Shown one piece after another: positions 51,870-52,021 of a stretch of 64,000 nt of DNA; the first letter of the stretch is position 1; every line of letters starts with the position of its first letter. The translations under genes and the position numbers were made by a program. Location: assembly GCF_017348835.2 (NCBI RefSeq), contig NZ_CP071375.1. The stretch is one strand, 5' to 3'. Below the pieces are notes generated by a model. That model was given only the letters and a program-made list of their open reading frames with translations, was not told the DNA's origin and did not search any database. Source of the DNA: Escherichia coli (GTDB lineage Bacteria; Pseudomonadota; Gammaproteobacteria; Enterobacterales; Enterobacteriaceae).

Positions 51870-51930
51870 TTGTTTCATAATTGTTGCAATGAAACGCGGT
51901 GAAACATTGCCTGAAACGTTAACTGAAACG
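51870..51930. promoter_or_regulatory. Candidate PrpR enhancer sites (GTTTCAT / ATGAAAC inverted repeats and repeated TGAAACG)
   Basis: Read directly; lies upstream of the sigma-54 promoter in the prpR-prpB divergent region. Confidence 0.5.
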
Positions 51931-52003
51931 CATATTTGCGGATTAGTTCATGACTTTATCTCTAACAAATTGAAATTAAAGATTTAATTTTATTAAGTCA
52001 ATT

Positions 52004-52021
52004 GTGGCACACCCCTTGCTT
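52004..52021 (+). promoter_or_regulatory. Sigma-54 (-24/-12) promoter of prpBCDE
   Basis: TGGCAC-N5-TTGCT at 52005..52020, about 45 bp upstream of the prpB ATG. Confidence 0.8.

What the first reader, a model, noticed from the sequence alone, without database searches (positions are those of the whole stretch)
51870..52021. Sigma-54 promoter and upstream enhancer-like repeats for prpBCDE
TGGCAC-N5-TTGCT is an exact -24/-12 match, and upstream GTTTCAT/ATGAAAC inverted repeats plus repeated TGAAACG fit binding sites for the divergent sigma-54 activator PrpR. This is expected biology and serves as a positive control for the motif reading.
Basis: partly seen in the sequence, partly recalled or inferred. 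Interest (0 to 1): 0.2.

Follow-up and report, generated by a model that had tools for sequence, protein, structure and literature searches.

The report
E. coli propionate operon promoter and enhancer
This is the already known control region of the E. coli propionate-breakdown operon, a sigma-54 promoter with upstream binding sites for its activator PrpR. It is ordinary, apart from a small genus-specific rearrangement of one activator site.

Summary
Window 51829-52066 is the E. coli prpR/prpB divergent intergenic region.

TGGCAC-N5-TTGCT (52005-52020, +) is the only match in 64 kb, against 0.06 expected. It is the same motif that sigma-54 ChIP-seq and RpoN-holoenzyme gSELEX located upstream of prpB in E. 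coli K-12. The predicted start is 36 nt before prpB, at window 52031.

Five GTTTCA/TGAAAC hexamers lie within 58 bp (51872-51929). None of 300 simulated windows had more than 3 in 60 bp. The half-site TGAAACG is half of the published Salmonella PrpR enhancer, CGTTTCATGAAACG. Similar hexamer arrays lie 48-180 bp upstream of a -24/-12 element beside prpR in 13 other loci from gamma- and betaproteobacteria.

One refinement: the distal dyad, GTTTCAT-N10-ATGAAAC, is nearly invariant in enterics. The compact proximal palindrome of Salmonella, Citrobacter and (degenerate) Kluyvera has lost its left half in the genus Escherichia. Escherichia instead has extra same-orientation TGAAAC copies 10-12 bp apart.

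The IHF and CRP sites named in the literature could not be located by consensus. A conserved ArcA-type direct repeat lies just downstream, at 52040-55.

This is known biology and of low interest. No transcript start has been mapped, and PrpR binding to the E. coli DNA was not tested.

The parts
50242..51828 (-). prpR, the sigma-54-dependent enhancer-binding activator (528 aa from the annotated ATG at 51828). It has a PrpR_N sensor domain, an AAA+ domain and an HTH_8 domain.
   Evidence: NCBIfam PrpR equivalogs NF011953 (1009 bits) and TIGR02329. RefSeq annotation. Walker A GETGTGKE at residue 246, GAFTGS at 301, DEIGE at 326, and [11 protein letters not shown] at 514. Precomputed Pfam domains PF06506, PF00158 and PF02954.
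51872..51895 (.). Distal PrpR site: the dyad GTTTCAT-N10-ATGAAAC, centred about -147 from the predicted start. The spacer TAATTGTTGCAA is also conserved. The site lies 44-67 bp upstream of the prpR ATG, so it probably overlaps prpR promoter control.
   Evidence: Perfect 7-nt inverted repeat (I8). The block GTTTCATAAwTGTTGCAATGAAAC is nearly invariant in 10 enterobacterial sequences, including Salmonella.
51900..51905 (+). Extra TGAAAC half-site (TGAAACA), found only in Escherichia. It lies 10 bp after the previous copy.
   Evidence: The aligned positions read TGATTC in Salmonella and other sequences in Citrobacter and Kluyvera; E. albertii has TGAAAT.
51905..51918 (.). Proximal PrpR site. It is aligned with the published Salmonella enhancer palindrome CGTTTCATGAAACG. 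In this window it reads CATTGCC-TGAAACG, so the right half is intact and the left half is degenerate.
   Evidence: Alignment. Salmonella sequence. Published enhancer sequence in PMC4987338.
51924..51930 (+). Third same-orientation TGAAACG half-site, 12 bp after the proximal one. Other genera have TGACACG here.
   Evidence: family D1.
51931..52004 (.). AT-rich spacer between enhancer and promoter (18% GC at 51950-51999), presumed to be the region bent by IHF. The best IHF-like match is TTTCAATTTGTTA at 51963-51975 on the - strand, with 1 mismatch. The AT palindrome AAATTAAA/TTTAATTT is at 51973-51990.
   Evidence: Composition and IHF scans. The spacer sequence is poorly conserved and its length varies between genera. 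The IHF requirement is known from Salmonella genetics, as cited in PMC5566544. The site itself is not located.
52005..52020 (+). Sigma-54 (-24/-12) promoter of prpBCDE, TGGCACACCCCTTGCT. GG is at 52006-07 (-25/-24) and GC at 52018-19 (-13/-12).
   Evidence: Unique in the window. Identical to the K-12 ChIP-seq motif GTGGCACACCCCTTGCT. RpoN holoenzyme gSELEX peak. TGGCAY-N5-TTGCW is conserved in all orthologous loci.
52031..52031 (+). Predicted transcription start, 36 nt upstream of the prpB ATG. It has not been mapped.
   Evidence: Follows the convention of PMC4591121: 19 bp downstream of the motif centre, distance 36 to prpB.
52040..52055 (-). ArcA-type direct repeat TGTTA-N6-TGTTA in the initially transcribed region (+10 to +25). 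It overlaps the dyad TTATCAAC-N11-GTTGATAA (52027-52053) and a perfect IHF consensus (52040-52052).
   Evidence: Single match in the window, 0.10 expected. TAACA-N6-TAACA is invariant in all 10 enterobacterial sequences. An ArcA box of at least 15 bits was predicted upstream of prpR, without a ChIP peak (PMC3798270). Inverted repeat I6.
52067..57698 (+). The prpBCDE operon: prpB 52067-52957, prpC 53118-54287, prpD 54321-55772 and prpE 55812-57698. The Shine-Dalgarno AGGA is at 52057-52060.
   Evidence: ORFs. NCBIfam equivalogs for all four genes. RefSeq annotation.

Best explanation
[quoted passage not shown] RNA polymerase carrying sigma-54 binds the -24/-12 element at 52005-52020 as a closed complex that cannot open by itself. 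The divergently encoded activator PrpR binds the cluster of GTTTCA/TGAAAC half-sites at 51872-51930, about 100-150 bp upstream. When its N-terminal domain senses 2-methylcitrate, which is made from propionate by PrpE and PrpC, its AAA+ domain assembles into an active oligomer. The AT-rich spacer at 51931-52004 loops with help from IHF, bringing PrpR to the polymerase. ATP hydrolysis then opens the promoter, and transcription starts near 52031.

Shown here: the motifs, their statistical significance, their conservation, and their identity with experimentally bound K-12 DNA.

Taken from the literature: sigma-54 binding in E. coli; the dependence on rpoN, prpR and ihf, the 2-methylcitrate signal and the PrpR footprint in Salmonella; CRP dependence.

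Inferred: that each of the five E. coli hexamers is a PrpR contact; that the 10-12 bp spacing places them on roughly one face of the helix to nucleate the oligomer; and the exact start site.
For: The gene identities are secure. The promoter motif is unique in the window. It is identical to the sigma-54 ChIP-seq site OS01 (FAT 17) upstream of prpB in K-12 and lies under an RpoN gSELEX peak. The homologous Salmonella site was bound in ChIP-chip, and prpBCDE was 45-fold higher in wild type than in the rpoN deletion. No sigma-70-like promoter was found in the intergenic region.

Five hexamers lie within 58 bp, far beyond chance. The half-site equals half of the published PrpR enhancer CGTTTCATGAAACG. 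That palindrome, together with the distal dyad, is present in Salmonella enterica at the aligned positions. Hexamer arrays lie upstream of -24/-12 elements beside prpR in 13 further loci from gamma- and betaproteobacteria, with per-locus Poisson P from 0.02 down to 5e-12, and they give the consensus aTGAAACr. The PrpR recognition helix region [11 protein letters not shown] is conserved across the same taxa.

Three of the most divergent E. coli intergenic variants (95-97% identity) carry no substitution in any hexamer or in the GG/GC dinucleotides. The E. coli prpR-PprpB cassette works as a propionate-inducible system.
Against: No transcription start has been mapped for E. coli prpB in any source I could read, and EcoCyc listed the promoter as 'predicted' in 2015. 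PrpR binding was footprinted on Salmonella DNA, not on E. coli DNA. The compact palindrome reported as the PrpR enhancer is not intact in E. coli, so which E. coli hexamers are actually occupied is unknown. The IHF site could not be located: the consensus occurs at chance frequency in the window, and Salmonella, where IHF is genetically required, has no match within 1 mismatch in its spacer. The primary papers (Palacios 2000 and 2004, Lee 2005, Suvorova 2012) were not available.
Confidence: 0.9

Rival explanations
1. The TGAAAC repeats are binding sites for Cra (FruR), whose half-site is TGAAWC, rather than for PrpR. They would then mediate carbon-flux control of prp.
For: A Cra binding site in the prpB regulatory region has been reported, as cited in PMC5829826. 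ACTGAAACGCATAT at 51922-51935 matches the loose Cra consensus RSTGAAWCSNTHHW with 1 mismatch.
Against: Purified Cra did not shift prpB target DNA in the same paper. The loose consensus occurs at chance frequency in the window (17 found, 13.5 expected). The orientation here is GTTTCA then TGAAAC, the reverse of the Cra palindrome TGAAAC-GTTTCA. The arrays travel with prpR into Oxalobacteraceae and Burkholderiaceae and match the footprint-derived PrpR sequence.
Confidence: 0.04
2. The distal dyad and its conserved spacer (51872-51895) serve mainly the divergent prpR promoter, as a CRP site, as promoter elements, or as a PrpR autoregulation operator. The prpB enhancer proper would then be only the downstream half-sites.
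For: The 10-12 bp between the two arms is as conserved as the arms themselves, which a simple two-half-site operator would not need. The site lies 44-67 bp from the prpR ATG. K-12 annotates PrpR as a 'dual regulator'. The literature says one CRP site serves both promoters and overlaps the PrpR operator.
Against: The best CRP-like match there is only 6 of 10 core positions. CRP SELEX did not recover prpR/prpB. The arms are exact PrpR half-sites. This reading complements the main explanation rather than excluding it.
Confidence: 0.3
3. The motifs are chance matches in an AT-rich intergenic region.
For: TGAAAC as a word is not over-represented in the window (46 found, 39.6 expected). Short AT-rich repeats are common in intergenic DNA.
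Against: The clustering of five copies is not reached in 300 simulations. The motifs are conserved over large phylogenetic distances while the surrounding spacer is not. Sigma-54 binds the promoter motif experimentally.
Confidence: 0.01

Closest known systems
Salmonella enterica prpR-prpBCDE control region (Horswill 1997; Palacios & Escalante-Semerena 2000, 2004)
   Same: Both have divergent prpR and a TGGCAY-N5-TTGCT promoter about 47 bp before the prpB ATG. The distal dyad GTTTCATAAwTGTTGCAATGAAAC is the same, as is the spacing between the distal and proximal sites. Both have the TAACA-N6-TAACA repeat before the ribosome-binding site.
   Different: Salmonella has the intact palindrome CGTTTCATGAAACG, where E. 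coli reads CATTGCCTGAAACG. E. coli has exact TGAAAC where Salmonella has TGATTC and TGACAC. The enhancer-to-promoter spacer is 24 bp shorter in E. coli (75 versus 99 bp) and cannot be aligned. The -24 element is TGGCAC in E. coli and TGGCAT in Salmonella.
NtrC-dependent glnAp2 and other bEBP/sigma-54 promoters
   Same: A -24/-12 promoter with several activator sites about 100-150 bp upstream, an AAA+ activator that oligomerises on the enhancer, and DNA looping (established knowledge; the enhancer list is in PMC4987338).
   Different: The activator senses a metabolite (2-methylcitrate) through a PrpR_N domain rather than through phosphorylation. The recognition sequence differs (TGAAAC versus TGCACC-N5-GGTGCA). 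PrpR in enterics carries GAFTGS instead of GAFTGA.
pPro propionate-inducible expression vectors (Lee & Keasling 2005)
   Same: They use this same E. coli prpR-PprpB cassette as a working inducible promoter.
   Different: They are an engineered context. The Salmonella-derived version gave about threefold higher output. That could relate to the enhancer differences seen here, but this is untested.

Membership tests
sigma-54 (-24/-12) promoter | GG and GC dinucleotides in TGGCAC-N5-TTGCW with fixed spacing | tested here: met
   TGGCACACCCCTTGCT at 52005-52020; the only match in 64 kb, with 0.06 expected.
sigma-54 (-24/-12) promoter | Occupied by sigma-54 or its holoenzyme | tested here: met
   Binding comes from the literature, for K-12: ChIP-seq OS01 motif GTGGCACACCCCTTGCT and a gSELEX peak. 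Tested here: the K-12 intergenic region is identical at this motif.
sigma-54 (-24/-12) promoter | Correct orientation and a short distance upstream of a gene, conserved in orthologous loci | tested here: met
   47 bp before the prpB ATG on the same strand. Conserved in 9 other enterobacterial sequences and found beside prpR in Photorhabdus, Oxalobacteraceae, a Burkholderiaceae MAG and Xanthomonas massiliensis.
sigma-54 (-24/-12) promoter | A cognate enhancer-binding AAA+ activator is present | tested here: met
   Adjacent prpR carries a Sigma54_activat domain, Walker A/B motifs and GAFTGS.
sigma-54 (-24/-12) promoter | Transcript 5' end about 12 nt downstream of the GC, and rpoN-dependent expression in this organism | not testable with these tools
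   Only a predicted start at 52031. rpoN dependence was shown in Salmonella. Growth of an rpoN-deleted E. coli on propionate was used as an RpoN-dependent phenotype in PMC4676750.
PrpR enhancer (upstream activating sequence) | Dyad-symmetric GTTTCA/TGAAAC elements | tested here: met
   Distal dyad GTTTCAT-N10-ATGAAAC at 51872-51895, conserved in Salmonella and all other enterics sampled.
PrpR enhancer (upstream activating sequence) | The compact palindrome CGTTTCATGAAACG reported from the Salmonella footprint | tested here: not met
   Absent from the window. The aligned position reads CATTGCC-TGAAACG, with only the right half intact, in E. coli and E. marmotae; E. albertii also has a degenerate left half (TAGTGTC). 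The palindrome is present in Salmonella and Citrobacter and degenerate in Kluyvera. This lowers the claim that the architecture is identical, not the claim that the region is a PrpR enhancer.
PrpR enhancer (upstream activating sequence) | Located roughly 50-200 bp upstream of the -24/-12 element, next to prpR | tested here: met
   Hexamer starts lie at -133 to -81 relative to the T of TGGCAC in the window, and at -180 to -48 in 13 other loci.
PrpR enhancer (upstream activating sequence) | PrpR protein binds the E. coli sequence | not testable with these tools
   A footprint exists only for Salmonella (Palacios 2004, cited); the paper is not held.
IHF-assisted looping | An IHF site between enhancer and promoter | tested here: inconclusive
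   One-mismatch match at 51963-51975, in a spacer that reaches 18% GC. The consensus occurs at chance frequency in the window, and Salmonella spacers have no match within 1 mismatch.
CRP-activated promoter | A TGTGA-N6-TCACA site in the intergenic region | tested here: inconclusive
   The best matches in the enhancer-to-promoter region are 6 of 10 core positions; the two 7-of-10 matches overlap the prpR start codon and the -24 element. The locus is listed in RegulonDB as a CRP target but was not recovered by CRP SELEX.

The most novel reading that the evidence does not exclude
In the genus Escherichia the proximal PrpR site changed from an inverted repeat (CGTTTCA|TGAAACG) to same-orientation TGAAAC half-sites: three in E. 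coli and E. marmotae, spaced 12 bp apart at 51900, 51912 and 51924, and two in E. albertii. If all of them are occupied, PrpR's C-terminal HTH domains would engage half-sites regardless of their relative orientation. The enhancer would then work as a helically phased landing pad for an AAA+ ring, not as a set of dimer operators. The same change could explain the roughly threefold weaker output of the E. coli PprpB system compared with the Salmonella one.
Probability: 0.25. Interest if true: 0.3.

Novelty: already known. Interest (0 to 1): 0.1.

Why it matters
The finding mainly shows that the first-stage motif reading can recognise a true sigma-54 promoter and its enhancer from sequence alone. 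The biology has been established since 1997-2005 and is used in the pPro expression vectors and in propionate biosensors. The one piece of added value is comparative. The PrpR half-site aTGAAACr and its multi-copy arrays are conserved from enterics to betaproteobacteria, while the arrangement of the half-sites varies (spacers of 0, 3 or 12 bp, inverted or direct). Escherichia has replaced the palindrome footprinted in Salmonella. This could guide engineering of stronger or tighter propionate sensors, and it offers a small natural example of binding-site turnover in a bacterial enhancer.

Tried and rejected
1. Primary papers (Palacios 2000, PMC94363; Horswill 1997, PMC178778; Lee 2005, PMC1070369; Lee & Keasling 2005, PMC1287719; Suvorova 2012, PMC3370838) are not held. 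The PrpR footprint, the CRP site and any start-site data had to come from citing papers.

2. The CRP consensus scan found nothing better than 6 of 10 positions in the enhancer, so no CRP site is assigned.

3. The IHF consensus scan was at chance frequency in the window and found nothing in Salmonella spacers, so no IHF site is assigned.

4. The sigma-70 promoter and terminator scan of 51780-52120 found nothing, so the prpR promoter is not located.

5. The Rfam scan of 51700-53200 found nothing in the intergenic region or the 5' UTR. It gave only sub-threshold REP-like naRNA4 hits between prpB and prpC.

6. The genome-contig scan with full-length PrpR was swamped by other sigma-54 activators; only about 14 of the 80 loci were prpR.

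7. The protein homology search was dominated by E. coli clusters, with no Salmonella in the top 120. Salmonella was instead recovered by scanning metagenome contigs for the published LT2 18-mer. Four of the scanned loci were true prp loci and the rest were chance 18-mer matches.

8. I considered the dyad TTATCAAC/GTTGATAA as a 5' UTR hairpin and rejected it. The predicted start lies inside the left arm, and what is invariant across genera is the direct repeat, not the dyad.

Full report
**What is in the sequence.** Window 51829-52066 is a 238-bp intergenic region between two divergent genes. On the minus strand lies a 528-aa protein that matches the NCBIfam PrpR equivalogs far above their cut-offs (1009 bits against a cut-off of 703). 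On the plus strand lie prpB, prpC, prpD and prpE, each matching its own equivalog. The same 501 bp occur at 90% identity or more in 5219 of 5426 complete E. coli genomes, where they are annotated prpR/prpB. The K-12 MG1655 intergenic region differs from the window at four positions (51849, 51981, 51998, 52036), none of them in a motif.

**Checking the observation.**
- TGGCACACCCCTTGCT lies at 52005-52020 on the plus strand. It is the only match to TGGCAC-N5-TTGCT in 64 kb, with 0.06 expected.
- GTTTCAT (51872-78) and ATGAAAC (51889-95) form a perfect inverted repeat with a 10-nt spacer.
- TGAAAC recurs at 51900, 51912 and 51924. Three of the four plus-strand copies are TGAAACG, and the 51900 copy is TGAAACA.
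- The word TGAAAC is not enriched in the window as a whole (46 found, 39.6 expected).
- Five copies within 58 bp is far from chance. In 300 Markov-simulated windows the maximum per 60 bp was never above 3, and a family-wise Poisson estimate is about 1e-6.

**The promoter.**
- The motif is identical to the one under sigma-54 ChIP-seq peak OS01 in E. coli K-12 (GTGGCACACCCCTTGCT, plus strand, upstream of b0331 prpB). That paper places the predicted start 19 bp downstream of the motif centre and 36 nt before prpB (PMC4591121). In the window this is position 52031, which puts GC 52018-19 at -13/-12 and GG 52006-07 at -25/-24.
- Reconstituted RpoN holoenzyme also selected this spacer in genomic SELEX (PMC8743547).
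- In Salmonella the homologous site TGGCATAGCCTTTGCTTT was bound in ChIP-chip, and prpBCDE was 45-fold higher in wild type than in the rpoN deletion (PMC3844500).
- No sigma-70-like promoter is detectable in the region.
- PrpR in the window has the features of a sigma-54 activator: Walker A GETGTGKE, Walker B DEIGE, a GAFTGS loop (a variant of GAFTGA) and a C-terminal HTH.
- EcoCyc still listed the promoter as 'predicted' in 2015, and I found no mapped 5' end.

**The enhancer.**
- A review of Salmonella enhancer-binding proteins gives the PrpR enhancer sequence as CGTTTCATGAAACG, citing the 2004 footprinting paper (PMC4987338).
- I recovered four Salmonella enterica loci by scanning metagenome contigs for the published LT2 promoter 18-mer. 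The PrpB encoded by one of them is identical to a S. enterica protein seen on at least 1000 contigs.
- I aligned ten enterobacterial intergenic regions: the E. coli window, K-12, E. marmotae, E. albertii, three Citrobacter species, Kluyvera ascorbata and two Salmonella loci. Four blocks are conserved, and the rest of the spacer cannot be aligned:
  - (i) the distal dyad GTTTCATAAwTGTTGCAATGAAAC, including its spacer;
  - (ii) the proximal block, CGTTTCATGAAACGTTAGCTGACACG in Salmonella and Citrobacter;
  - (iii) TGGCAY-N5-TTGCT;
  - (iv) a block just before the ribosome-binding site.
- Beyond the enterics, GTTTCA/TGAAAC arrays lie 48-180 bp upstream of a -24/-12 element beside prpR in Photorhabdus, several Oxalobacteraceae and a Burkholderiaceae MAG. 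GTTTCA copies always come first and TGAAAC copies follow. Per-locus Poisson P values range from 0.02 down to 5e-12.
- The 56 half-sites give the consensus aTGAAACr.
- The HTH segment [11 protein letters not shown] of PrpR is conserved across the same taxa, which fits a conserved recognition sequence.
- Three of the most divergent E. coli variants (95-97% identity) have all their substitutions outside the five hexamers and outside the GG/GC dinucleotides. Most substitutions fall in the AT-rich spacer.

- In block (ii), the genus Escherichia does not have the palindrome. The aligned positions read CATTGCC-TGAAACG in E. coli and E. marmotae, and E. albertii also has a degenerate left half (TAGTGTC).
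- At the same time, two neighbouring positions that are imperfect elsewhere (TGATTC and TGACAC in Salmonella) are exact TGAAAC in E. coli, at 51900 and 51924.
- The E. coli enhancer is therefore one wide dyad plus three same-orientation half-sites. The four plus-strand copies (51890, 51900, 51912, 51924) are spaced 10, 12 and 12 bp start to start, roughly one helical turn apart.
- In betaproteobacteria the inverted pair has a 3-bp spacer and is followed by further TGAAAC copies 8-12 bp apart.
- The number, spacing and orientation of half-sites are thus plastic, while the hexamer itself is fixed. Whether every E. coli copy is bound by PrpR is an inference.
- The cassette as a whole is functional, because it drives the pPro vectors and propionate biosensors. 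The Salmonella version was reported to be about threefold stronger. I note this as a possible but untested consequence.

**Other factors.**
- IHF: the literature says IHF is required, on the basis of Salmonella genetics. The spacer at 51931-52004 is AT-rich, reaching 18% GC at 51950-51999, and has a one-mismatch IHF match at 51963-51975. However, the consensus occurs at chance frequency in the window, and Salmonella spacers have no match within 1 mismatch. I do not assign a site.
- CRP: one CRP site is said to serve both promoters and to overlap the PrpR operator. I found no match better than 6 of 10 core positions in the enhancer, and CRP SELEX did not recover the locus.
- Cra: a Cra site has been reported at prpB, and TGAAAC resembles the Cra half-site. 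But purified Cra did not bind prpB DNA, the loose consensus is at chance level, and the orientation and phylogenetic distribution fit PrpR better.

TGTTATCAACTTGTTA lies at 52040-52055 on the minus strand. It is an exact TGTTA-N6-TGTTA repeat of the ArcA type and is unique in the window, with 0.10 expected. TAACA-N6-TAACA is invariant in all ten enteric sequences, including Salmonella. Park et al. 2013 predicted an ArcA box of at least 15 bits upstream of prpR, a gene that responded to arcA deletion but had no ChIP peak (PMC3798270). This is presumably the same element. It lies at about +10 to +25, where bound ArcA-P could block transcription of prpBCDE.

**Verdict.** The finding is real and correctly interpreted, and the biology is already known. 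The mechanism is the standard activator/sigma-54 scheme, and my confidence in it is about 0.9. Confidence that each individual hexamer is a PrpR contact is lower, about 0.6. Interest is low. The only mildly new element is the Escherichia-specific remodelling of the proximal PrpR site, which may already be described in sources I could not read.

Noticed in passing
window 52040-52055 (- strand); dyad 52027-52034 / 52046-52053: An exact ArcA-type direct repeat, TGTTA-N6-TGTTA, lies at about +10 to +25 of the predicted prpB transcript. It is unique in the window (0.10 expected), and TAACA-N6-TAACA is invariant in 10 enterobacterial sequences including Salmonella. It overlaps a perfect IHF consensus (TATCAACTTGTTA) and an 8-bp dyad that is conserved in all the sampled enterics except Salmonella. 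Park et al. 2013 predicted an ArcA box upstream of prpR without a ChIP peak.
   Followed up: partly
window 51905-51930 versus L086/L107 (Salmonella), L003, L202, L203 (Citrobacter): In Escherichia (E. coli, E. marmotae, E. albertii) the left half of the published PrpR palindrome CGTTTCATGAAACG is degenerate. Neighbouring near-matches have become exact same-orientation TGAAAC copies: both 51900 and 51924 in E. coli and E. marmotae, but only 51924 in E. albertii (TGAAAT at 51900).
   Followed up: yes
window 51931-52004 and aligned spacers in L003, L202-L204, L086, L107: The enhancer-to-promoter spacer is AT-rich, cannot be aligned between genera and varies in length: 75 bp in E. coli, about 85 bp in C. 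werkmanii, C. amalonaticus and Kluyvera, and 99 bp in Salmonella and C. koseri. The differences are roughly one and two helical turns.
   Followed up: partly
window 52948-53089 (prpB-prpC spacer): Sub-threshold Rfam naRNA4 matches (27-30 bits against a gathering score of 59.5) occur on both strands, consistent with REP-type repeats. [quoted passage not shown]
   Followed up: no
L211 (E. coli SCPM-O-B-9504, NZ_CP144930.1): A natural variant in which two IS1A copies flank a rearranged fragment. prpR is truncated to an N-terminal pseudogene, and the intergenic region is separated from prpB, so this strain probably cannot induce prpBCDE.
   Followed up: no
E. coli RefSeq complete genomes: Nine of the 5223 matches to the prpR-prpB region lie on plasmid records rather than chromosomes. 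About 200 complete genomes have no match at all.
   Followed up: no
window 51301 region of prpR (protein residue 301): Enterobacterial PrpR carries GAFTGS instead of the canonical GAFTGA sigma-54 contact loop. Three of the non-enteric PrpR sequences examined (Rugamonas, an Oxalobacteraceae MAG and Xanthomonas massiliensis) have GAFTGA.
   Followed up: partly
L006, L007 (Massilia): In these Massilia loci a GTTTCA-N3-TGAAAC palindrome lies directly upstream of prpR, but the neighbouring divergent gene is not prpB; its translated start resembles a small membrane protein. No -24/-12 motif was found in the adjacent spacer, which suggests a different target or autoregulation.
   Followed up: no
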